64,000 bases of DNA, from NCBI RefSeq assembly GCF_044647545.1, contig NZ_CP172818.1. The stretch is one strand, 5' to 3'. Origin of the DNA: Escherichia coli (GTDB lineage Bacteria > Pseudomonadota > Gammaproteobacteria > Enterobacterales > Enterobacteriaceae). Below are positions 4,117 to 42,788 of the stretch, in pieces. How positions within the stretch are numbered: the first letter of the stretch is position 1; every line of letters starts with the position of its first letter. The notes under the pieces were generated by a model. That model made no database searches and was not told the DNA's origin. It saw nothing but the letters and a program-made list of their open reading frames with translations. The position numbers and the translations under genes were made by a program.

Positions 4117-4485
4117 ATAAAAAAAGGGAGCACTGTATTCACAGTGCTCCCGGTTCGTTTCGCAGCATTCCAGCTACTTTTGTTGCTCCCTGCTCATCCT
4201 TGACAACTTTTCCTCTGGCCTTGCGGCCAATCGTTCATCCTGAACTATTGCTTCCTGCTCACACCACCCCGATGTGATACTTCATCCTGAAGTGTCCCTG
4301 GCCTTCCTGACCCACCGAATCATCCTGACCGGTTCTCATTCTCCATCCTGGAGGTGTCCTTTAACGCGTCCTGCGTCATCCTCTTCGCTTCATCCAGAAG
4401 CCTTTCCCTGAAACACCATCCTGGTGTGTCCTTCAGAAGTGTCATCATCCTGATGTTCACTTCGTTGTCTGACTCCCTGTCGACG
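4117..4485 (-). ncRNA. csrB: CsrB sRNA (CsrA-sequestering RNA)
   Basis: About 369 nt whose reverse complement contains many CAGGAUG / AGGA motifs (seen as repeated 'catcctg' on the + strand) and ends in a GC-rich hairpin plus U-tail (rc of 4119-4151); located between yqcC and syd as in K-12. Confidence 0.9.
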
Positions 4486-4694
4486 AAGATAGAATCGTCT
4501 TTTTCGCGAAGTCTTACAAGGCGCTTACAGACAATGCCTTAAGGAAAATTTCATATGAAAGTTAAGAATTGACAAGCAATATATTGATTTTAAATGAAAA
4601 TAACGATTCTTATCTTTTTAAGTATTCGCTTATTTCCTGGCGATCTCCTACAGAGTCTGTAAGAGATCTCTCACAACAAGATGGGGTATTTGGA

Positions 4695-5240
4695 TTACAG
4701 AAGAGGCTTAAGTTGATTAAGGAATTCCGCAAGATTTGAGGCTAAATGCGTCCGTTTGCGTGTTCCCAGCGTCTCTTTGCACACTTCACCGGAGAGATTA
4801 CACACCGAGATGACCTCTAACTCTTCTTCCAGCGTCGCGATAAATAGCGTGGGCGGCAGTTTTAGCCTTTTCTGAGTCACCAGATGACCAATCAGATTTT
4901 CCTGCACCCGACGGAAGTCGTCTTCACTCCAGGTTTGCAGCAATGTCAGTTTGATATCGCCAAACTGCGCGTGCATATCCCCGGCAAACTGAGTCGTATA
5001 AAAGGTATGAATTGTGGGTTGTATCACAATATCAAAAGCACGTTCAACCGCGTTTACATTTTGTTCCCCGGTAAACGGCTGGGGTTGCCAGTATACGGCG
5101 TCTTCGGTGGTTGAAATAATGCACGGTGAAGGAACACCGTACAGTTCCTCACTCAACGGCCAGCTTTTATGCTCTTCATGCCACGCATCGCAGTAGCGTG
5201 CAGTAAAATCTTTCAGGGCTTGTGCGGTCAAATCGTCCAC
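4695..5240 (-). CDS. syd: SecY-interacting protein Syd
   Basis: 181-aa ORF recognised as Syd. Confidence 0.85.
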
Positions 5241-5307: not shown

Positions 5308-6156
5308 ATGTCTTCTTATGCAAACCATCAGGCACTTGCGGGCCTGACTCTTGGAAAATCAACCGATTACCGGGATACCTATGACGCCAGCCTACTGCAA
5401 GGCGTTCCGCGTAGTCTGAATCGCGATCCGCTGGGTCTGAAAGCGGATAACCTGCCTTTTCACGGTACGGATATCTGGACGCTGTATGAACTTTCCTGGC
5501 TGAATGCGAAAGGTTTGCCGCAGGTCGCCGTCGGTCACGTTGAACTTGATTACACCAGCGCAAATCTGATTGAGTCGAAGAGTTTTAAGCTCTATCTCAA
5601 CAGTTTTAACCAGACGCGTTTTAATAACTGGGATGAGGTGCGCCAGACGCTGGAGCGCGACTTAAGCACTTGCGCTCAGGGTAAGGTTAGCGTGGCGTTA
5701 TATCGTCTTGATGAACTGGAAGGCCAACCGATAGGTCATTTCAATGGCACTTGCATTGATGACCAGGATATCACTATCGATAACTATGAATTCACTACTG
5801 ACTATCTGGAGAATGCCACCAGTGGCGAAAAAGTAGTAGAAGAGACGCTCGTCAGCCACCTGCTGAAATCAAACTGCCTGATCACCCATCAACCAGATTG
5901 GGGATCGATCCAAATTCAGTATCGTGGACGCCAAATTGACAGAGAAAAACTGCTGCGTTACCTGGTCTCTTTCCGTCATCACAACGAGTTCCACGAACAG
6001 TGCGTGGAACGCATCTTTAATGACCTGTTACGCTTCTGCCAGCCAGAAAAATTGAGCGTTTACGCACGTTATACCCGTCGTGGCGGTCTGGACATTAACC
6101 CGTGGCGCAGTAATAACGATTTTGTCCCATCGACCACAAGACTGGTTCGTCAATAA
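5308..6156 (+). CDS. queF: NADPH-dependent 7-cyano-7-deazaguanine reductase (queuosine biosynthesis)
   Basis: 282-aa ORF recognised as QueF (YqcD). Confidence 0.9.
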
Positions 6157-27232: not shown

Positions 27233-27309
<77 letters not shown>

Positions 27310-27342
27310 ATTAAAATTTGATGAAGTAAAGCAGTACGGTGA

Positions 27343-27419
<77 letters not shown>

Positions 27420-27452
27420 ATCAAAATTTAATGAAGTAAAGTAGTACGGTGA

Positions 27453-27529
<77 letters not shown>

Positions 27530-30500
27530 ATTATCTGAATACCCAAGTTTTCACAATCGTTTTTTTTATTTAAATCTTTCCTGAATCACAAAGTTTTTTA
27601 TCTCCCTTCCTCGAATAATCAATTACACTAAATTATCCCTTTCTGTATACTCAATCCCCGATATCCTTGTAATGATATTTTCATTACATCTAAATTCCCA
27701 ACGTTCAACTAAACACATCCACCCCAAAACATTTCTTCTTCAATCACCTAATAAACCCCTCATCCACAACTCCCCCCATTGATGATCAACACATCCATCA
27801 TCACAAATATTTATACTAATAAATCTCCACTCAAAAAAACAAAAAACAATGATGAATCGACTCATAAAATATCTTCAATTATACAAATGAATCCACTTTT
27901 CACAACTAATCTTTTTTCAAAACTAAAACTCAACATCAAAACAATAACCTTCCCATTTTTCCAATATCGTACCAACACAATACGTTTACCTTTAACCCAC
28001 CATCACTCACCCATACCATTTTCATCCATGATACACCGATATTTTCATCCCGAAATAATCCAATGATAAATTCCCAACCATTTGAATTAATCCCAACCAT
28101 TATTACAATAATACTATTCCTCCACGAAATCAATATTTCTATCCCCTCCCGAATCTCGATATTATTTTCACACCAACACAATAACTTCCCCTATAACAAT
28201 CTTCCCAACCCAAATAATCTCTAATCATATTCTATTTAACAATCCCACATTATTCTTAATAATAAATTAAAATTATTCTCTCTACAACCCAAAACACTCT
28301 AAAACACTACCAAACATTTTTATACACACTCACTTCAAAAACCACCCCAAAAATACTTACTGTATTTATATTTTAAATTATGAATTTCTTTAACCATCAC
28401 CCCTGATGATAAACCGAAACACACATAAATTTTTTCAATTCAAATCAACCCACCCATCACCAACAACCAAACAACATCCACACATATCTAAACTAAATTA
28501 TCCCCTCACTTTACGATTTCAACAATAAATCACAACTTACCAACATATATACTAAAAAATCAAATAATTACCCATTTTTTTCAACACATTCCCAATTTCC
28601 CTCTCACACTTTTGAAATAAAATAACAACATCTCTTCCCACATCCAATCCTGTACCCTCCTACCTAACAAAAAACGAATCCTACTCAAAATCCGATTTTC
28701 CAATAAACCGACTTACCAACACCAATAAAAACAACTTTTCCCTACAAATTTATACTTTAATTAAAACGAATCAAAATATCAATAACTCTCTACTTAATTC
28801 TTACATAAAATTTTAATAATATATCTTATTCATTTTTATTCTCCCTGATTAATATTTTTAATTACACTCACAAACCGTAACCCCATATATAATTTTTCTC
28901 ACCCACCATTCAAGAATACCCTCCCCCTCCGTTCCATAACATCCCCCCATAACCATTTCCTTCATGAATTAACACTTAAAATTCATCAAAAGATAACCAA
29001 TACAAACAATCTACCAAAAAAACAACATCACTCCTACATCAATTCAATATTTTATTCAATACTAATTGAATTAACAATATTCTTTAATGATTTACATCCC
29101 AATCTAACAATAAACAATTATATTCATACTATGGATTTACAAAACTATACGATATCTTCTAACTTATGATTAAAATTACTCATTAAATCATAAGATCTTA
29201 TCAAATTAAATTCATATCATTATACTACTACTTTTTCTTTTTTTATTTTAACCGATGTAACTACTCATTAAAAACAAAATCACTATGATTTCATCTAACA
29301 TAACAAATTATCCTTAACCACATTTTATATTCTTCTTCCACCAACTTCCTCGTTATGAGATTACATAATAACACCATCTCTTTTATCTTAAACAAATCCC
29401 ATTATACTACCCCCCTCATTTTTTATAATCAAAACTTCAAATATTCCCTATTTTTTACATCAAAAACATTAAACATTAAAAACAAATATTATCACACGAT
29501 CAATAATCTATTCTTTTCAATAATACATCACATCTATATTATCCATTCATTTTATCTTTTATATTTTATAAACCATTTACTACCATTCAATATTCACATT
29601 CAAACAGTACCTAAAATCTTTCCAAGTTTTCTTAATCCCTACACACTTCTTATCAAATCCATATCTAAATAAAATGTAATACATCTTTTACACCAAATCT
29701 CCCCAAAATCCCATTTACAATATTTCCTTCAAACAGTATTAAAAACATCCATCACATATCCATTATTATCCATATCCACCAACATGACTTTATACCGATA
29801 ATATTTATATTTTATCAATTTAATATAATTCCCCACTCTTTTTATTCTCCTCAATCAACCCATATCGATTTTAAACTAAAGATACCAATTATCCAGATTT
29901 AATATTCTCTTTACCACAATCCTTAACATCTCTCTCTTCACTCTATTTATCAACGTATATCCCTATACTATCCTCATACTTCACTACAATACTCTTCACC
30001 ACTCATCAGTTAAATTTAAAATACAACAACACAAAGTAATAAATAAAAAATACCACTTCGACACACACCTATTCAACTTTCTTCCACCAAACCCAAACTA
30101 ATAAATTGAATCAACCCATAAATCCCATCTTCACCCCATAACAAACACGAATCCATTCATAAATCATAAACAAACACATACTACAAATAAAAAAAATCCA
30201 ACTCCTACCCCCAATAATGATTAACACCCCAAATAACAATCTTTATACTTTTCTTTTACATACATCGATACACCACCCACCACCAACATACTAATCATCA
30301 TTTCTTTCCATTTTCCCCCAAACCACAATACCATTCTCTACACCCATAAAATCATCCATAATACTCTCCCCCAATCACACCTAAACCGACGTAAACAAAA
30401 ATCACCAGATTTTAACCAAAAAACTCACTCCAACTCATAAAAAATAACCGAACAACCGAATATATCATCCAATGACATGAAAATTAAAAACCCAATAAAA

Positions 30501-31641
30501 GAATGATCAACCAAACCATCATCACAATCATTAATAACACAACCTATAAAAACTAATATCTAACTAAATTAACGTCTTTTTAACACCATAATAACCCACA
30601 ACAATTCCTCTAAACCTTATTTAACTGATCCCAAATATTTATCGACATTTACACACCAATAATCTCTTTTAAATAAAATTCTCCCAGACACCCATAAAAC
30701 AATAAAGAAAAACATATTTATCCTCTTTTTTTTAATAACCAAGAATTTACCAAACAAACATAATAACAAACAAACAAACCAAAACAATAAACAATATTTT
30801 TATTATGAAACCAAAATAATTAATCCATATCATCATCTAAACATCCACCTACATCACACATACAACAACAAGAAATAAACCTCATCTAAAAAAAATCCAC
30901 TTTCTTTTATTTCATATAAATTTATATATAAAATTAATACTACGAATAAAATATATTTTCTCTAAATACATATTTAAAACAACAATACTCAATTTATGAA
31001 TTAAAATTCTTTCTCAAAAATCATAATCACAATATTCTTTTTTTTATACATAAAACAAAAAAAATAATCATCATAACTTAAATTAAATAATCTCACTTAT
31101 AAAACCGATAACTTTATTTTTTAATAATAAAAAGCATAACAATGAATTCAATTATTTAAAACAAATAAAATTCATCAAATTAAACTAAATTATAATAACA
31201 CAATATTTACAATTTATCAAAAAAAATTATTATTTTACCAAAAAATAAAACAAAAAACAAAAATTTAATTTTTCAAATACACAAACAACAACAAAACAAC
31301 AAATACATAATAATATAACGGGTGTTTTTTTGTTTCTTGTCTCCCATAAAAGAGCCAGCCATCTCAGACGACATTCCATATTTTTTTTTAACCACCCACC
31401 CAGAAATATAACCTCTCCATTCACACTTACACAATTATTTCATACTTATATCAATACTCCCAAAAAAAACAACACTCAAATAATAATACTCAAACAATAA
31501 CATACAAAATAACAACAAACAAACGAATTTTTAATTAAAAACTTTATTTTCAACGACATTCAAAATCCACATCATCACAAAACATCTAATATTCATAAAT
31601 TTATCTATCAACGAAATATAAATTCATAATAAATAAAAACA
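27530..31641. other. About 4.1-kb non-native, apparently non-coding block with extreme G-depletion on the + strand (A/C/T-rich, AT-rich); origin and function unknown
   Basis: By eye, most 60-nt lines contain 0-3 G. No ORF longer than about 105 codons in any frame, and those present translate to low-complexity peptides. No obvious long direct or inverted repeats, no integrase, no duplication of the tRNA 3' end. Fills the whole gap between metV and the amiC stop, where K-12 has only tens of bp (from memory). Confidence 0.85.
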
Positions 31642-32895
31642 TTATCCCCTTCTCGCCAGCGTCGCCCCATCGGCAAAATACGCTTTAATTCCCGCAAGAA
31701 TAGACTCCGCAACTTCCTGCTGGAAAGTCGCCGTTTTCAGTTTACGCTCTTCCTCAACGTTACTGATAAACGCCGTTTCGACCAGAATGGAGGGAATATC
31801 TGGTGCCTTTAGTACGGCAAACCCAGCCTGTTCAACTTGATTTTTATGCAGCTTGTTGATTTTACCGAGCTTATTCAGCACCGCTTTACCAAACTTAAGG
31901 CTGTCGGCAATGGTCAGCGACTGCACCATATCGAACATAGTGTGGTCGACATAGCGGTCACCGCTTTTGCTTACGCCACCAATCAAGTCCGAGGCGTTCT
32001 GGGTTTGTGCCAGATATTTTGCCGCAGTACTGGTTGCACCTTTGGTTGAGAGCGCAAACACAGAGGAACCGCTCGGCTGACGACTGGTAAAGGCGTCGGC
32101 ATGGATAGAGACAAACAGGTCAGCACGCTGTTTCTGGGCTTTTGCTACGCGCACTTGCAACGGAATGAAGATGTCTTCATTGCGCGTCATGTACACCTTC
32201 ATATTGCCCTCTTTCTCGATCAGAGAGCGCAGACGGCGAGCTATTTGCAATACCACGTCTTTTTCGCGCGTTTTGTATTTCCCCACCGCACCGGAGTCTT
32301 CGCCACCGTGGCCAGGGTCAAGCATAATGACAATCGGACGATCCCGCCCAGCTTTACCCGGTTGTGGACCACTTTGTGCTGGCGGCACCTGCTTTTCGAG
32401 GTCGCCTTTGTTGTAATCCTCCAGCAGCGCCAGCAGCGGGTCCTGCATGTCCTGAGCATTGGCAGGATAGAGATCCATCACCAGACGCTCTTTAAACCCG
32501 GCGACCGGCGCAAGGGCAAACAGCTGCGGTTTTACGTTTTGCTTTAATTCAAAAACCATGCGTACGGTTTGCGGGTCAAATTGCCCGACGCGCGCCGACT
32601 TGATGAACGGGTCGTCTGCACGAATTTGTGCCGCCATCCCCTTGAGTACCGAGTTCAGGTTTACATCTTCGATATCCACCACCACGCGTTCCGGGTTACT
32701 CAACGCGAACTGCTTATATTTCAGCTGACGATTTGATTCTACCGTCACGCGGGTGTAGCTGGACGCAGGCCAGACGCGCACCGCCACGACCTGGCTGACC
32801 GCAGCCAGACTGACCTGACTTACGCTCAATAGCCACATGGCACCCGCGCCTTGCAGTAAACGACGACGGCTGATTGCAGTGTTGGATCCTGACAT
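31642..32895 (-). CDS. amiC: N-acetylmuramoyl-L-alanine amidase AmiC
   Basis: ORF-track ORF 31642-32985; the 417-aa product starts [23 protein letters not shown] (Tat twin-arginine signal) at 32895. Confidence 0.9.
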
Positions 32896-34539: not shown

Positions 34540-36366
34540 TTATTCCCGCGAACTAAACAACGCCGCCAGACCACTGCGCCGCTCGGTGCGCGTGGCAATT
34601 GCCGCACTTAAAATGCGCTCATCGGCATACAGCGACAGACGGCGACGCGCGCGGGTCACTGCGGTGTAAACCAGCTCTCGCGTTACTACCGGCGTGCGTT
34701 GACTCGGTAAAATCAACGCCGCATGGTCGAACTCCGATCCCTGCGATTTATGTACCGTCATCGCCCACGTCGTTTCGTGCTCTGGCAGGCGACTCGGTTG
34801 CACAGACTTAATATTGCCGTCCGGCATCGCAAACCAGACGCGCGTCCCCTGCCCACGATCCAGCGCAATACCGATATCGCCATTAAACAACCCAAGCGCG
34901 CTGTCATTACGGGCAATCATCACCGGTCGGCCTTCGTACCAACGAGAGTGCGGATGACGATGAATTTTGCGCTTCTGTTGCATAAACTGCTCAATTCGCT
35001 CATTCAGTCCAGCCACGCCAAACGGCCCTTCCCGCAGGGCGCACAAAAGCTGGTACTCATTGAACGCCTGAATGATTAAATCCGGCTCGGCACGCGCTTG
35101 CAGCAGATCCAGATAACGTCCGTAACCCGCAAGAGCTTCCTCAAGCATCGCAATATAATCTTCGCCGCTCTGTAAAAGCCGTTTTTCGATATCAGAAAAA
35201 TCCTGCTGAAAAACGGTTTTCACTGCCGTTTTATCACCACGGTTGATCGCCGCAGCTAACTGACCAATGCCAGAATCGCTGCCGAAACGATAGCTTTTTT
35301 GCAACAGGCAGAGACTGTCGCGCAAAGATGCCGCTTCTGTGCCAGTTCCTGCCGGAACGTGAGTTCCCGTCAGGCGGCTTAGCTGCCCGGCACGCTCGGC
35401 GGTAAAGCCGGCATTGGCATAAGCACAAATATCGCCCAGCACAGCCCCAGCCTCAACCGAGGCCAGTTGATCACGATCGCCGAGAAAGATCACTCGCGCA
35501 TGATCGGGCAAGGCGTCTATCAGTCTCGACATCATCGGCAGATCGATCATTGACGCTTCATCTACCACCAGCACATCAAGATGCAGCGGGTTACCGGCAT
35601 GATGGCGTAAACGCTGGCTACCTGGCTGCGCGCCCAGCAATCGGTGCAAAGTACTGGCATCTTCCGGAATGCGTTTCTTTTGTTCATCGGTCAGCGGTAA
35701 CTGGCGCAAAGCCTTGCCGAGAGATTCGGTTAAGCGCGCGGCAGCTTTACCCGTTGGTGCAGCCAGACGGATACGGCAGCGTTCGCCGTCGGCCATTTGA
35801 ATTAACGCTGCCAGCAACTTCGCTACGGTGGTCGTTTTACCGGTGCCAGGGCCGCCGGAAATCACTGAGATCCGCCGCGTCAGCGCCACTGCCGCCGCAA
35901 CTTTTTGCCAGTTAATTTCATCGCTTACTGGAAAAAGTTTGTCCAGGGTTTGCGCCAGTAGTGCTTCATCAACCTCAATGGCATGATTCACTTCGTTGAA
36001 AAAGCGTGCCACTGTGCGCTCGTTACACCACATGCGATTCAAATAAAGACGATCGCCACAGAGGATCATCGGCGTTGGTTCATCTCCCCGGCTGACCGCT
36101 TGTGAAGCCAGCAAGCATTCTTCCCAATTTTGTAGCTCACCGATTTCACTGACACAGGTCGCCAACAGCGGATGCGATGCCTCGTTATTTTCCAGTCGTG
36201 AAAGCGGCAAACAAACGTGTCCCTCTCCGGCATCATGACTTAACAGTGCCGCCGCGAGGGTGACGGCAGGATGTTCATCTCCCGCCACGGTCAGGGCAAA
36301 CTGCACGTCCAGCGGGCGTAGCTGTTTGTGCTCCACAGCTTCCAGTAATTGCTTTTGCAATTTCAT
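34540..36366 (-). CDS. recD: Exodeoxyribonuclease V alpha subunit
   Basis: 608-aa ORF with Walker A motif [10 protein letters not shown]; the start codon overlaps the recB stop (TAATG). Confidence 0.92.
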
Positions 36367-39300
36367 TACGCCTCCTCCAGGGTCATACCGGCAAACATCT
36401 CATCCATCAGGTCAATCAACCCGGCGTTGGGTCGGGTCGCGTAGATCCCTTGTTGCGGATGTTCTTTATCAACGCCACGCAGGAACAGATAAATAACGCC
36501 GCCAAAGTGGCGCTCATAGTCGTAATCAGCAATGCGATGGCGCAGATAACGGTGCAGCGCCAGGGTATAAAGCTGATATTGCAGATCATAGCGGTGCGCC
36601 TGCATTGCCGCTGCCATAGCCTGTTGGGTGTAAGCCGAACTGTCTTCACCCAGCCAGTTGGATTTATAGTCGAGCAGGTAATAACGCCCTTCGTGGCGGA
36701 ACACCAGGTCGATAAAGCCTTTTAACATGCCACGTACCTGCATGAACTCCAGCGGCGGGCAGCCAGCGGATAGCGGGTCAAACTGGCGAATTAGTGCATC
36801 AAGCTGACTGGCGATAAGCGGTTCACTAATCGGCAGGTAAAACTCCATCTCCACCTGTTTATCGCGATCGGAAAGCTGATTCAGGCTAACACCCGTTTCA
36901 TTGAGAGGTGCCTGGAGGACAGCCGTGATCCACTCAGTCAACACCGGTTCCCACTGCGGTTCAAAGCCGCCGAGCTCCAGTTTTTCCTGTACCCAGTTCG
37001 GGTCAACCGGCTGGGTAAAATCGAGGTCTTCAAACAAACTGTGCAAGAATGTCCCCGGTGACGCACCGCGCGGGAACTGATGCGGTGTTAACGTCGGTTC
37101 TTCAACGACGCTGACCACGCCTGCGGCATCAACATCCAACCGTGGCATCAGATCCTGAGCGATACCGTGACCACGCTGCTGCAAACCGGAGTAGCTGGTG
37201 ACACGCCAGTTATCGCCGGGCAATCGTTGTAGCGTCCTCGCATTCAGTTCTGCAGTTAATGCATCATTAACCTGCCAGGGCTGGTTATCACCAGTTTGTG
37301 CCGTTTGCCAGGCAATATCATCATCGCATAACGCTTCAATACAGGTGCGAAGCCCTGCCGCATCTTGCGGTTCCCCTTTTTGCAGCAAACGCCCGAGCGC
37401 ACTTTGGTGGACGTCGGTATCACCTTTTTTATCGCCACGACGGCGCACCAGCGGTGCAACGCCGAGACTGCAATGCCAAACCGAACGCGTCAGCGCCACG
37501 TAAAGCAAACGCAGATCTTCCGCCAGACGTTCGGCCTCCGCGAGGTCGACGCTTTCTGGCGCAGCATTAAGATCCAGAACAGCCTCAAACGAGTGGCGAT
37601 CGTGATAAAACGCCTGATCCTGGACGCGGAAATTGGTGATAAACGGCAGCCAGACCAATGGATATTCCAGCCCTTTCGATTTGTGGATCGTGACAATCTG
37701 CACGAGATGTTTATCACTTTCGAGACGCATTTGTTGGCTGGAGGCATTACTGTCTGGCTCGAGGATATGTTGCGATAACCAGCGTACCAGCGCATGTTCA
37801 CTTTCCAGCTGCGTGCCGGCTTCTTGTAGCAATTCGCTGATATGCAAGATATCGGTAAGACGCCGCTCACCGCCTGCTGTTGCCAGCAAGTTTTCTGCAA
37901 TGTTACGCGCCGACATCAGCGCCCGCAGCATCGGCATAACGCCACGTTTGCGCCAGATTTGCCGATAACCATCGAACTCTTCGACTACCGCATCCCACGC
38001 ATGTTCGTCATTATTCAGCGTTTCAATATCCAGCGCATTCAGCCCCATCATTGACGTTGCCAGCGCACTGCGCAGGGTGTTCTCACGTTCGGGTGTCATC
38101 ACCGCCTGCAACAGCCAAAGCATCTCCTGTGCTTCCAGAGTTTCAAAAACACTGTCGCGGTTCGAAAGGTAAACGGAAGGGATTTCCAGCAGCGTTAAGG
38201 CATCGCGCACCTGAGCGGCCTCCTGGCGGCTGCGCACCAGCACACTGATGTCCGAAGCACGCACCGGACGCGCGTCGTCGCCGTTCATCAGCAACGCTTC
38301 GCCCCGCTGTCCGGCTTGTAGCCAGTCGCGGATTTGCGCAGCACATACCTGCGCCATGGTACTTTGATAGTCGCCAACGCCGCAGCTTTCGCCTTCCATC
38401 AGCCACATTTTCATCGCAGGCTGCGTTTCACCTTTAAACACAAAACGTAACGCCTGATTTTTCCCGGCTGATTTCACTGGAATAAAAGGAATTTCGCGAA
38501 ACATGAACGCGTCATCAGTCTGACTGAAAAGTTTGTTAACGCTGTTCACCATTCCCGGTGCGGAACGCCAGTTGGTGTCTAAGGTGTAGTGGGCGTGAAC
38601 TTCGCTACGCGCCTTCATATAAGTGAAGATATCCGCACCCCGGAATGCATAAATGGCCTGTTTCGGGTCGCCAATCAGCAACAATGCGGTTTCCGGCTGA
38701 TGGTGCCAGATACGGCGAAAAATTCGGTACTGCTGGGGGTCGGTATCCTGAAATTCATCGATCATTGCCACCGGGAATCGCGTACGGATCGCCGCTGCCA
38801 ATACCTCGCCGCTTTCACTACGCAGCGCGGAATCGAGCCGACTTAACATGTCATCAAAACCCAATTCGCCACGGCGGCGTTTTTCACGCGCTACTGTTTC
38901 GCGGATCTCAGCTAATGCGCGAGTGATCACCAGATCGCGGATCGACAATGGTTCTGCAAGCAGTTGATCGATCGCCTCAAACAGTGGATGTCGCGGGGTT
39001 TCCCCCCGGCTTTCGTGCGATCTTCTAAGAAACGCTGAGAGAATTTTTCCAGCGACTCTGGCAACTGATAGCTGTTGGTCTCTTCTTCTGCCCAGGCGCT
39101 GATCTTGTCGATCCATTTAGCCTGATTGCTACGGTTAAACTTGCGTCGATCAATACCAGAAGATTCGATCAGCGCATCCAGTTCACCCACCGCGTCGCGC
39201 CACTGCTGTTTTACCGTATCAATACGCGCCACAATTTGCGCGTGGCGGGAAGCCAGCGTTTCATCATCGGGCGGCGGCGCTTTGATAACCGGCGCTTCGC

Positions 39301-39907
39301 CTTGCAGATAACGATTAATATCGCGCAGTAACGCCTGCGGCCCTTTCCAGGTTTCAAAGACGACCTGGGCAATTTCACGCGGCAGCGGGTAGCAGTGGCG
39401 ACGCCAGAAATCGGCGCAGGCCTGGTAACGTAGCAGAGACTCATCTTCAATCAGCTGCTGCTCAAACAGCATGCCGGATTCAAAGGCATTCAGGTTGAGC
39501 ATGCGCTGGCAAAAACCGTGAATAGTAAAGACTGCCGCTTCATCCATCTGCCGTTCGGCTAACAACAACCACTGCGCGGCTTGCGCTTTATCGTCGATCT
39601 CTTCCAGCAGGCGTTTGTACAGTGGATTGTCGGTGGTTTCACGCAGACAGGCGATGCGCAACTCGTGGATATTGCTACGGATACGACCGCGCAATTCTGC
39701 CGTGGCAGCCTCGGTAAAGGTGACCACCAGCAGTTCTTCAACGGTCAGCGGGCGGGGAAAGGCGGCAGAACCGCCTAGTCCAAGTAACAGGCGCAAATAG
39801 AGCGCCGCAATCGTAAAGGTTTTGCCTGTGCCGGCAGAGGCTTCAATCAGGCGCTCGCCCTGTAAGGGCAAGCGCAAAGGATCTAGTGTCTCGGCGACAT
39901 CACTCAT
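36366..39907 (-). pseudogene. recB: Exodeoxyribonuclease V beta subunit RecB, disrupted by a -1 frameshift (or a homopolymer sequencing error)
   Basis: Two overlapping same-strand ORFs, 38927-39916 (329 aa, RecB N-terminus with Walker A ASAGTGKTFT) and 36366-39116 (916 aa, rest of RecB). The frames switch at a run of 6 C at 39000-39005 (+ strand); 7 would give ...RTKAGGETPRHPLFEAIDQLL... in one frame. Total span is 3542 bp against 3543 bp expected for 1180 aa plus stop. Confidence 0.85.
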
Positions 39908-42788
39908 TCTTTTCACTCATCAGGGGCATTGTTTGCTGCAACGCGCTGACGTTCTCCCACACTTTCCAGCCTTCAGGATGCACATATTCGGCTTTCCCGT
40001 TCTGGCTGCCGGAAATCTGCGACAGAATAGCCATACCTTGCGGCTCGACCACCGCCTGATGGAAGAAATCAGCAAGTTTTTGCGGCGTCAGCAGTTTTAT
40101 CTGGGCCACGATTTTATCACGCGAATCGAAGCGCATATTGCCGCGATCGAAATCTTTACTTAACTTCGATGCTTCTTCGCCGAGCGTTTGCGGTGCCTGC
40201 AGCATCTGGGTAATTACCGCCTGCTGGATTTGCGCAAACTCTTCTGGCTTCATCGCCCGCAGTTTCGCTTCTGCGGTCGGGAAAAACGCCTTGTAACGCT
40301 CCCACAAGAATGAAGGCTGTTTATCATTGCTTTGCAACAGGAAGCCCATGCCCCACTGACGCCCCACGCTCATTGGAAACGCAAACACGGCATAGCCCAA
40401 CTGTTCTTCGGTACGCAACTGATTGTAGAACCACGGCTGTACGATCTGCCCCAACAGAGAACTATACGCTGAACTGGTGTATTCATCGTAGCCAGTCGGT
40501 ACAAATACCGCTGCCAGTGCGGAGTCGGTGCTGTTACCGGCTTTTTCAAAGATGACGGATTGTTTTTTATCGACCACGACATCTTTGTTACGACACCACT
40601 CCGAACCATCAGCGCCCAACTGTTTTTGCACATCGCGTGCCAGCGTTGTTGCCTGGGCCTCGGTCATGTTGCCGATAACCATAAACTCTGGTCGAGCCCC
40701 TGATTTTAAGGCGTCGCGATAGGCCAGAACTTCTTTCAAAGTAATGGAGGGCAAAATTTTGCGCCGTTCATCTCGCGAGAAGTATGGTACTTGCGAGAGC
40801 ATCTGCGCGGGCATAATCGCCTGCTCGAACGCTTTGCCCTTTTCTGCAGAATCCATCATCTGGTTATACCAGGACTTCGCCTGCTCAAGCTGATCTTCCG
40901 TAGCGGTATAGCTAAAGTACCCCTCGAGCAATGCCTGGAACAGCTGCGGCAGGCGCTGGGTGTAACCATTGGCATTAACCATAAGGCCGTTGTTAGCATT
41001 GGTGGAAAAACTTATGCCACCAACCGACGCCTGGTTGCTTAACTGATCAAGCGCCAGCCCTGCGAGATAATCATTGAGCGCAAACATCACCTGATTGCGG
41101 GCGCTATCCATGGCTTTTGGATTACGCAAAATCAGGCTGACATCAGCTTTGGGTTCGCTGGAAAAATAACGGCTTGGCGCATACACCACACGCAGATTCG
41201 ACTCATCAACAATCAGCTCTGGATGGTCATATTTCTTCTCTGACTTAATCAGCGAGAAATCGTCAGGAATATAGGGGTTAAGCTCTGGCAAAGAGAGCGC
41301 AATGTCGGCGGCTTTTTTCTGCCAGTCAGCGAAAGTTTGTGCGCTAATTTTATCGACCTGATACGGCGCATCGACAAAGTAAGCCGTTTTGTTGTGCGGC
41401 TCTTTCGGGCTGATATACCAGATACGCGCATTCTGCGGCGTCATCATCGCCAGGCGTTCTTTTACTGCTTTAGCGTCGTACCGATCGGCAATATTGACTG
41501 CATCCAGCGTATGCTCAACAGGAACGCGAATCATGGTATCTGCCAGCCATTCGACGTAATCCATATCACGGGTGATTGACGGATAACGGAAGTCGATATC
41601 CAGCACATTCGCCAGTTCATCGAAGTATTGTTTATCAATCCCTTTTTCGCGTAACAGATTGAGGTAGCTAAAAATGGCCGCCACAACCTGATCGCGATTC
41701 GCCAGACCTTTATCGGTTAAAGACGCAGAGATCGCTAATACGCCGCTGTTGCCGTTGACGATAGGATCGGAATTGGCGCTAATACCCTCAACTAATCCCT
41801 GCTTTTGCAGCCAGTCAGAAAGTGTACCTGGGCTGCGATTACCAATCAGATAGGTAATCAATTCATCCGTTTTACTACGGAACTTCGCTGAATTGTTATC
41901 GATGCGAAACTCAACGCGCAGAACTTTACGCGGCAACGCCGGGACGTAATGAATGATAATGCCCTTTTGCGCGTCGGTGACTACCGGCACGGTGATTTCC
42001 GGTTTTTTGCTCTCTTTGTTCGGCACGCGACCAAAGGTGTCCGCCGCCATTTTCGCCAACTCCGGCAACGGTTTATTGCTGTAAATAACCGCCTTCATCA
42101 GATTGGCGGAATAGTACTTCTCGTGGAAATCTTTCAGCGCCTGCTGTACCGGATTACCTGGTTTGTCGCTTAAAGTTTCGAGGTTACCACCAGAAAACTT
42201 TGAACCGGGGTGTGCCGGGTTAATGGTTTCTGCGCTGACCTGTGCCATGCGCATCCCGTCACGCGTACGCGCCATGGTTAATTCGGCATTCACTGCATTA
42301 CGTTCACGTTCGGCGTATTTCTTGTCGAGCAAGGGTTCTGCAATAGCATCGGCCAGGCGGTCTACCGCACCGGGTAAGGCATCGTTCTCAACTTCCAGAT
42401 AGAAAGCCGTGCGATACGGTGCCGTGCTGGCATTGTGACTGCCACCGTGCATTTTGAGATATTCGGCCAGACTGTCAGCCTGCGGGTACTTTTTCGACCC
42501 CATCAGACTCATGTGTTCAAGGTAATGCGCCAGCCCCTGATACGCCTCGGGATCTTCCAGCGACCCAACGGGCACCACCAGCGCCGAGAGCGATTTAACC
42601 GCCTGCGGATCAGAAACCAGCAAGACCACCATACCGTTATCCAGACGTATAGCCTGATACTGGCGGTTATCTTTATCACTTTTACGGATGGTTTCCTGAA
42701 TCGGCTGCCATCCCGTTTCTGCCTGACTTAAGGGTGCCCAAAGGGCAACAAACAACAATAATGCTTTGAACCAGATGCTGCGGGGCAT
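39900..42788 (-). CDS. ptrA: Protease III (pitrilysin), periplasmic M16 zinc metalloprotease
   Basis: 962-aa ORF with signal peptide and inverted zinc-binding motif HYLEH; recognised as PtrA; 3' end overlaps the recB start by 8 nt. Confidence 0.92.
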   Translation of the reverse strand: MPRSIWFKALLLFVALWAPLSQAETGWQPIQETIRKSDKDNRQYQAIRLDNGMVVLLVSDPQAVKSLSALVVPVGSLEDPEAYQGLAHYLEHMSLMGSKKYPQADSLAEYLKMHGGSHNASTAPYRTAFYLEVENDALPGAVDRLADAIAEPLLDKKYAERERNAVNAELTMARTRDGMRMAQVSAETINPAHPGSKFSGGNLETLSDKPGNPVQQALKDFHEKYYSANLMKAVIYSNKPLPELAKMAADTFGRVPNKESKKPEITVPVVTDAQKGIIIHYVPALPRKVLRVEFRIDNNSAKFRSKTDELITYLIGNRSPGTLSDWLQKQGLVEGISANSDPIVNGNSGVLAISASLTDKGLANRDQVVAAIFSYLNLLREKGIDKQYFDELANVLDIDFRYPSITRDMDYVEWLADTMIRVPVEHTLDAVNIADRYDAKAVKERLAMMTPQNARIWYISPKEPHNKTAYFVDAPYQVDKISAQTFADWQKKAADIALSLPELNPYIPDDFSLIKSEKKYDHPELIVDESNLRVVYAPSRYFSSEPKADVSLILRNPKAMDSARNQVMFALNDYLAGLALDQLSNQASVGGISFSTNANNGLMVNANGYTQRLPQLFQALLEGYFSYTATEDQLEQAKSWYNQMMDSAEKGKAFEQAIMPAQMLSQVPYFSRDERRKILPSITLKEVLAYRDALKSGARPEFMVIGNMTEAQATTLARDVQKQLGADGSEWCRNKDVVVDKKQSVIFEKAGNSTDSALAAVFVPTGYDEYTSSAYSSLLGQIVQPWFYNQLRTEEQLGYAVFAFPMSVGRQWGMGFLLQSNDKQPSFLWERYKAFFPTAEAKLRAMKPEEFAQIQQAVITQMLQAPQTLGEEASKLSKDFDRGNMRFDSRDKIVAQIKLLTPQKLADFFHQAVVEPQGMAILSQISGSQNGKAEYVHPEGWKVWENVSALQQTMPLMSEKNE

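What the first reader, a model, noticed from the sequence alone, without database searches (positions are those of the whole stretch)
27530..31641. 4.1-kb non-coding block with near-total G depletion on the top strand, inserted between the tRNA-Met cluster and amiC
Seen directly: from the base after the metV CCA end to the base before the amiC stop codon, the + strand is built almost only from A, C and T, whereas the flanking genes have ordinary balanced E. coli composition. The block is also AT-rich. Six-frame translation gives no ORF above about 105 codons in 4.1 kb, and the few present (27779-28066, 29355-29672, 31230-31424) translate to low-complexity peptides. No long direct or inverted repeats or periodic arrays were spotted by eye. 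From memory, K-12 has only a few tens of bp here, so this is extra DNA. A transcript of the + strand would be G-less and one of the - strand C-less, so either could form almost no G-C or G-U pairs and would be essentially unstructured. I cannot tell whether this is a real horizontally acquired non-coding element, the footprint of strand-specific deamination on a former island, or a synthetic or assembly artefact.
Basis: partly seen in the sequence, partly recalled or inferred. Interest (0 to 1): 0.85.

Follow-up and report, generated by a model that had tools for sequence, protein, structure and literature searches.

The report
Corrupted copy of ordinary gene island
The G-poor 4.1-kb "non-coding" block is the strain's own well-known five-gene sugar-uptake island with about 89% of its G letters (and some T and C) simply missing, which points to a sequence-record artefact rather than a new genetic element.

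Summary
Window 27530-31641 has 2.7% G on the + strand, against at least 21.8% for G or C in any equal-sized stretch elsewhere. It has no ORF above 105 codons.

The block is not a novel element. Both flanks (about 59.9 kb) match E. coli IMT16316 (ST648-like lineage) with zero mismatches. In that genome the metV-amiC interval is a 5,566-bp island with five intact minus-strand genes: phosphoglycerate dehydrogenase, KpsF/GutQ isomerase, MalY/PatB, PTS EIIC and a PRD antiterminator. This is the c3405-c3410 set of PAI-CFT073-metV.

The block is collinear with that island and almost a pure subsequence of it:
- 4,082 bases match, with 0 substitutions.
- 1,484 bases are missing in 995 runs of 1-12 nt. 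Loss rates are G 89%, T 20%, C 19%, A 2%.
- 30 bases are stray.

The dropout ignores codon phase. It is stochastic, context-biased, and worsens from left to right.

A 52-bp patch (31316-31367) keeps its Gs. It is the K-12-type metV-amiC spacer, which the parent lacks, and it sits at the island's best match to that spacer.

No known mutational process deletes one nucleotide type at about 900 sites without a single substitution. I conclude it is a computational corruption (a consensus or polishing failure, or an in-silico edit). Whether it was accidental or deliberate cannot be decided here.

The parts
27233..27529 (+). Three tandem initiator tRNA-Met genes (metZ/W/V equivalents; 27233-27309, 27343-27419, 27453-27529). 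They are intact and form the left anchor of the block.
   Evidence: ARAGORN. 100% identical to IMT16316.
27530..31641 (-). The whole block: a letter-dropout rendering of the 5,566-bp metV island (c3405-c3410 type). The parental genes lie on the minus strand.
   Evidence: Global alignment to the isogenic parent: 4,082 matches, 0 substitutions, 1,484 deleted bases (G 891/998, T 321/1601, C 230/1234, A 42/1733), 30 stray bases. Collinear throughout, with reference-to-block expansion of 1.23-1.81, against about 3.3-3.9 for shuffled controls.
27586..28323 (-). Remnant of the phosphoglycerate dehydrogenase gene (948 nt in the parent, 738 nt here).
   Evidence: Coordinate mapping through the alignment. 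Parent annotation.
28378..28833 (-). Remnant of the KpsF/GutQ-family sugar-phosphate isomerase gene (597 nt reduced to 456 nt).
28836..29752 (-). Remnant of the MalY/PatB-family gene (1,176 nt reduced to 917 nt).
29752..30910 (-). Remnant of the PTS EIIC transporter gene (1,581 nt reduced to 1,159 nt).
30931..31453 (-). Remnant of the PRD-domain antiterminator gene (825 nt reduced to 523 nt). This is the zone of heaviest T/C loss, about 50%.
31316..31367 (+). G-retaining patch that matches the K-12-type metV-amiC spacer (spacer positions 15-63), a sequence absent from the parental island. It lies inside the PRD-gene remnant.
   Evidence: Local alignment score 78, against a shuffle maximum of 28. 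9 of the 30 stray bases cluster here, and all of them turn island sequence into spacer sequence. The same spacer is found in 3,346 E. coli genomes. The patch sits at the island's top-scoring local match to the spacer, reference 5142-5172.
31453..31641 (-). Remnant of the 258-bp regulatory/intergenic region upstream of the PRD gene (189 nt here).
   Evidence: alignment shown.
31642..32895 (-). amiC, intact. It is the right anchor, and exact identity to the reference resumes at its stop codon.

Best explanation
The block is not a biological element. It is a corrupted rendering of the strain's own 5,566-bp metV island, an ordinary five-gene PTS/sugar-phosphate operon. Letters were dropped rather than changed: about 89% of + strand Gs, 10-50% of Ts and Cs, and about 2% of As. 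A short piece of the more common island-less (K-12-type) spacer was written in where it best aligns.

Shown: the parentage, the deletion-only spectrum, the blindness to reading frame, the stochastic and drifting character, the chimeric patch, and the absence of any other copy.

Inferred: the corruption happened in silico. The likely routes are a sequential or neural consensus/polishing step, possibly competing against an island-less haplotype, or a deliberate or generative edit of the record. By this reading the physical chromosome carries the intact island. I cannot tell an accidental pipeline failure from a deliberate in-silico edit, and I rate them roughly equal.
For: (a) Both flanks match IMT16316 with 0 mismatches over about 59.9 kb. 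The interval there is 5,566 bp with five intact CDSs.

(b) The block is a near-perfect subsequence of that interval: 4,082 matches, 0 substitutions, and 1,484 deleted bases in 995 runs of 1-12 nt. It is collinear end to end.

(c) The IMT-type allele leaves 30 block bases unexplained, against 99-269 for six other natural alleles. The parent is therefore the lineage's own copy, with no divergence.

(d) Retention does not depend on codon position: G is kept at 0.10, 0.11 and 0.12 at positions 1, 2 and 3. All five ORFs are destroyed.

(e) Identical 7-mers give discordant outcomes. Retention is context-biased, with G kept in 46% of CGA, 28% of TGA and about 1% of NGC. It drifts from left to right: YGA retention falls from 61% to about 20%, and T/C loss rises from about 10% to about 50%. 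It is mildly clustered.

(f) The K-12-type spacer patch keeps its Gs and sits at the island's best microhomology to the spacer.

(g) The damage starts within 2 nt of the tRNA end and stops within 15 nt of the amiC stop, which is exactly the segment that differs between island-bearing and island-less genomes.

(h) No other copy was found. 1,689 complete E. coli genomes carry the intact island, and none carries the G-less form at more than 80% identity. There were no hits in GTDB representative genomes, JGI metagenomes, PLSDB or the phage collection.

(i) Elsewhere the window differs from its relatives only by two private 1-bp deletions, one of which frameshifts recB. That is an indel-type error profile.
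Against: No reads, quality values or assembly metadata are available, so the claim that the physical DNA is intact is an inference.

I know of no documented pipeline failure that drops one base type on one strand at 89%.

A simple consensus against gap-bearing sequences does not by itself explain the base specificity or the roughly 20 stray bases. Those bases do not match natural alleles (4 hits, against 4.2 expected by chance).

The exact 40-mer scans used one probe only.
Confidence: 0.93

Rival explanations
1. The DNA is physically real. A natural, strand-specific, G-targeted deletion process (for example lesion-skipping bypass at damaged guanines) degraded this one island in vivo.
For: The depletion is strand-specific and confined to an accessory island. 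Most events are 1-nt deletions (711 of 995 runs), the class produced by polymerase slippage or lesion skipping.
Against: About 890 independent G deletions plus about 590 others occur with zero substitutions in 4,082 retained bases. The adjoining 59.9 kb has no mismatch to a sister genome. No known process has that specificity, density or sharp boundary. A mutational process cannot create the K-12-type spacer patch. No second isolate has the block.
Confidence: 0.02
2. The DNA is physically real but man-made: a synthetic G-poor construct deliberately placed at the metV locus of an ST648-like strain.
For: The replacement is exact, from the tRNA end to the amiC stop. G-less templates exist as transcription-assay tools (background knowledge).
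Against: The sequence does not look designed. 113 Gs remain. T and C are lost at a drifting 10-50%. Outcomes for identical 7-mers differ. There are no promoter/terminator modules, selection marker, scars or vector sequence, and the plasmid and phage collections give no match. A designer would have no reason to embed a K-12 spacer fragment inside it.
Confidence: 0.03
3. The block is the footprint of strand-specific cytosine deamination (APOBEC/AID-like, or a targeted deaminase) on a former island.
For: Strong G depletion together with A enrichment on one strand.
Against: Deamination would give G>A transitions at constant length. The spectrum observed is 878-891 G deletions against 0-3 G>A changes, and the region shrank by 1,454 bp. 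T and C are lost as well.
Confidence: 0.005
4. The block is a foreign, horizontally acquired non-coding element, or a vector/organelle contaminant joined in by misassembly.
For: Composition very different from E. coli, and no long ORFs.
Against: The block is collinear with the native island along its full length. Plasmid and phage searches at blastn sensitivity found nothing.
Confidence: 0.005

Closest known systems
c3405-c3410 gene set of the metV genomic island (PAI-CFT073-metV). It is listed as 'PTS system, maltose/glucose specific' in PMC2831201. The metV island also encodes the regulator PafR (PMC8882828).
   Same: Same chromosomal site (tRNA-Met cluster to amiC), the same gene order, and nucleotide collinearity over the entire block. 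The parent allele is identical to that of IMT16316/FDAARGOS_497.
   Different: None of the five genes is readable here: 26.7% of the letters are missing and the longest ORF is 105 aa. I did not verify that the PRD gene here is pafR itself.
K-12-type metV-amiC spacer (73 bp in MG1655)
   Same: Window 31316-31367 matches spacer positions 15-63 with two mismatches and three extra bases, and the Gs are intact.
   Different: In real genomes the spacer and the island are alternatives at this site. Here a spacer fragment is embedded about 275 bp from the right end of the degraded island, inside the PRD-gene remnant.
Insertional RNA-editing 'cryptogenes' (kinetoplastid U-insertion, Physarum mitochondrial C-insertion); a resemblance from background knowledge only
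   Same: The DNA looks like a gene set lacking mostly one nucleotide type (C on the coding strand).
   Different: The loss is stochastic, also affects other bases, ignores the reading frame, and is absent from isogenic relatives, which carry the intact genes. No such machinery is known in E. coli.
Indel-type consensus errors of long-read assemblies
   Same: The errors are deletion-only, and the same window carries two other private 1-bp deletions, one of them in a C7 run.
   Different: The density (27% of bases), the base and strand specificity, and the chimeric patch go far beyond ordinary residual errors.

Membership tests
Functional metV-island PTS operon (c3405-c3410 type) | Located between the tRNA-Met cluster and amiC, and collinear with the island at nucleotide level | tested here: met
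Functional metV-island PTS operon (c3405-c3410 type) | Five intact ORFs (PGDH, KpsF/GutQ, MalY/PatB, EIIC, PRD) | tested here: not met
   The longest ORF is 105 aa. Each gene remnant is 22-37% shorter than its parent.
Deaminase hypermutation footprint | C>T / G>A transitions at preserved length | tested here: not met
   0-3 G>A changes against 878-891 G deletions; length 5,566 reduced to 4,112 bp.
Ordinary pseudogene/island decay | A mixture of substitutions and indels without base specificity, with divergence accumulated relative to sister strains | tested here: not met
   0 substitutions in 4,082 aligned bases. Deletion rates are G 89%, T 20%, C 19%, A 2%. The flanks are identical to the sister genome.
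Designed G-less cassette / synthetic insert | Complete and regular absence of G, with designed modules or vector-derived sequence | tested here: not met
   113 Gs remain. Retention is stochastic and drifts along the block. No plasmid or phage match.
Insertional-editing cryptogene | A reproducible, frame-restoring pattern of missing nucleotides that is conserved among relatives, together with editing machinery | tested here: not met
   Relatives carry the intact genes. The pattern is frame-blind and stochastic. The machinery cannot be tested with these tools.
Sequence-record artefact (assembly, polishing or in-silico edit) | Derivable from a known parent by a non-biological operation; unique to one record; not reproduced by independent reads | tested here: inconclusive
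   The first two features are met. Read-level support cannot be tested here.

The most novel reading that the evidence does not exclude
The 4.1-kb G-poor sequence physically exists in the chromosome. It would be the product of an unknown process that removes guanines from one strand of a single accessory island without causing substitutions, or of an undocumented synthetic replacement.
Probability: 0.03. Interest if true: 0.9.

Novelty: not a real feature. Interest (0 to 1): 0.06.

Why it matters
As biology it does not matter. The locus is the ordinary metV-adjacent PTS/sugar-metabolism island, present intact in about 1,690 of 5,426 complete E. coli genomes.

It matters for data quality. Five genes are silently lost from this record, and a composition-based scan would flag the region as a striking novel element. 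The same record also has a frameshifted recB. Both should be checked before anyone draws conclusions about gene content or recombination proficiency in this strain.

Tried and rejected
(1) G>A hypermutation model. Rejected, because the alignment shows deletions rather than substitutions.

(2) A large internal deletion as the cause of the 1.45-kb shortfall. Rejected, because the longest deletion run is 12 nt.

(3) A different island allele as the parent of the poorly aligning right-hand part. Rejected. The block is collinear throughout, and six other alleles fit worse.

(4) Consensus with homologous island alleles (homologue-based polishing) as the source of the stray bases. Not supported: 4 coincidences, against 4.2 expected by chance.

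(5) Independent per-base dropout at fixed rates. Rejected in its simple form, because the rates depend on context, drift with position and are clustered.

(6) A deterministic text or k-mer rule. Rejected, because identical 7-mers give discordant outcomes.

(7) A codon-aware recoding. Rejected.

(8) Vector, plasmid or phage origin. No hits.

(9) An exact 40-mer of the block in GTDB representative genomes and JGI metagenomes. No hits.

(10) A naive global alignment of the K-12 locus to the island locus, to predict where the spacer would be placed. It scattered the spacer over several short matches and was uninformative. The local alignment was informative.

Full report
**Observation**

The compositional anomaly is real and extreme. 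The 4,112 bases at window 27530-31641 contain 1697 A, 1289 T, 1013 C and only 113 G. GC skew is about -0.65 to -0.89 throughout, and GC content is 14-35%, against about 52% in the flanks. In 1,034 other windows of the same length, neither G nor C ever falls below 21.8%.

The left edge is the 3' end of the third initiator tRNA-Met, at 27529. The right edge is the stop codon of amiC, starting at 31642. The longest ORF is 105 codons.

A + strand transcript would indeed be almost unstructured: -0.033 kcal/mol/nt, against -0.30 in the flank. A - strand (C-less) transcript would still fold moderately through G-U and A-U pairs, at -0.147.

**What the block derives from**

A megablast of the block against 5,426 complete E. 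coli genomes hit 1,578 of them. All hits were at 60-80% identity, over a cluster annotated as phosphoglycerate dehydrogenase, KpsF/GutQ isomerase, MalY/PatB and PTS EIIC.

Both flanks are 100% identical to several genomes of one lineage, including IMT16316, ST648 and FDAARGOS_497. Against IMT16316 the whole window outside the block has zero mismatches. In that genome the metV-amiC interval is 5,566 bp and carries five intact minus-strand genes, the four above plus a PRD-domain antiterminator. The literature describes this as the c3405-c3410 'PTS system, maltose/glucose specific' gene set of PAI-CFT073-metV (PMC2831201). The intact island is present in 1,689 complete genomes.

**How the block differs from its parent**

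It does not differ by substitutions. Global alignment of the parent interval to the block gives 4,082 matches, 0 substitutions and 30 unexplained block bases. 1,484 parental bases are missing, in 995 runs of 1-12 nt. The losses are 891 of 998 G (89%), 321 of 1,601 T (20%), 230 of 1,234 C (19%) and 42 of 1,733 A (2.4%).

Even when mismatches are allowed, only 3 G>A changes appear.

The block is collinear with the island from end to end. Each 200-nt piece of the block spans 1.23-1.81 times its length in the parent, whereas shuffled pieces need about 3.3-3.9 times.

Six other natural alleles of the island (91.6-97.3% identical to the parent) explain the block worse, leaving 99-269 unexplained bases against 30. 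The parent is therefore this lineage's own allele, with no divergence at retained positions.

**Character of the dropout**

- It is blind to the reading frame. G retention is 0.10, 0.11 and 0.12 at codon positions 1, 2 and 3.
- It is stochastic. Identical 7-mers centred on G, T or C have discordant outcomes.
- It is context-biased. G is kept in 46% of CGA, 28% of TGA, 18% of CGT, 10% of TGT, 1-4.5% of AGN and about 1% of NGC.
- It drifts from left to right. YGA retention falls from 17/28 in the first 800 nt to about 20% later. T and C loss rises from about 10% to about 50% near parental positions 4,400-5,200, then falls to 20-30%.
- It is mildly clustered. There are 12 runs of at least 6 nt, against 2.6 expected under independent local rates, and the lag-1 residual correlation is 0.13.
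- About 20 stray bases outside the patch look like random substitutions or insertions, often at G positions. They do not coincide with natural alleles: 4 coincidences, against 4.2 expected by chance.

**The chimeric patch**

At window 31316-31367 the block keeps its Gs, and 9 of the 30 stray bases cluster there. This stretch matches positions 15-63 of the K-12-type metV-amiC spacer, with a score of 78 against a shuffle maximum of 28.

That spacer is present in 3,346 genomes but not in the parental island. The patch lies at the island's single best local match to the spacer, parental positions 5142-5172.

So a fragment of the alternative, island-less haplotype has been written into the degraded island, at the place where an aligner or a sequence model would confuse the two.

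**Interpretation**

No known mutational or enzymatic process removes about 890 guanines from one strand of a 5.6-kb segment while introducing no substitution in the 4,082 retained bases, leaving the adjoining 59.9 kb untouched, and also importing a piece of a different haplotype.

- Deamination is excluded by the mutation spectrum.
- Foreign or vector origin is excluded by the collinearity with the native island and by the empty plasmid and phage searches.
- A designed G-less insert is implausible, given the residual Gs, the drifting T/C loss, the stochastic outcomes and the absence of any engineered module.

The damaged interval is exactly the segment that distinguishes island-bearing from island-less genomes: it starts 2 nt after the tRNA, and its last change is 15 nt before amiC. 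The G-poor version occurs nowhere else that I could search, namely RefSeq complete E. coli genomes, GTDB representative genomes, JGI metagenomes, PLSDB and phage records.

I therefore conclude that the block is a corruption of the sequence record and not a feature of the organism.

**What remains inferred**

The left-to-right drift, the context-biased stochastic dropout, the avoidance of G by deletion or occasional replacement, and the confident 'recall' of the commoner spacer haplotype all suggest a sequential or neural step (consensus, polishing or a generative model). A fixed-rate deletion script fits these features less well.

The window's only other differences from its relatives are two private 1-bp deletions, one of which frameshifts recB. 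That fits an indel-prone assembly.

A deliberate in-silico edit is not excluded, and I rate the two origins as roughly equal. Deciding between them needs reads, assembly metadata or a PCR across the locus.

**Verdict**

This is not a real feature, and its scientific interest is low beyond flagging the record.

Noticed in passing
window 39007 (recB; ORFs 38927-39916 and 36366-39116, minus strand): A C7 run in all near-identical genomes is C6 here. This splits recB into 329-aa and 916-aa ORFs, against an intact 1,183-aa ORF in IMT16316. It is either a homopolymer sequencing error or a genuine recB frameshift.
   Followed up: partly
window 25880 (intergenic, mltA-tcdA): A private 1-bp deletion (GGTTATCCC becomes GGTTTCCC) relative to IMT16316 and the other near-identical genomes. 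Together with the recB change, the roughly 59.9 kb outside the block shows 0 substitutions and 2 deletions.
   Followed up: partly
L002 (IMT16316 island), parental positions 5142-5172, inside the PRD-domain gene: The intact island contains a 31-nt stretch (TGTTTTTTTGTTCATTTCTGACATAAAAAA) resembling positions 22-52 of the K-12 metV-amiC spacer. The score is 31, only slightly above the shuffle maximum of 28 obtained when the spacer was aligned to shuffled versions of the block. It is probably chance microhomology, but it is where the spacer patch appears in the block.
   Followed up: partly
window 31453-31641; parental positions about 5340-5405: The parental upstream region has an inverted repeat (AAGGCAAGGCA ... 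TTGCCTTGCCTG), possibly a regulatory hairpin of the antiterminator-controlled operon. In the block its right arm is removed entirely, in the longest deletion run (12 nt), while the left arm lost only its Gs.
   Followed up: no
E. coli genome collection: One of the 1,691 places matching the island lies on a record classed as a plasmid. I did not examine it.
   Followed up: no
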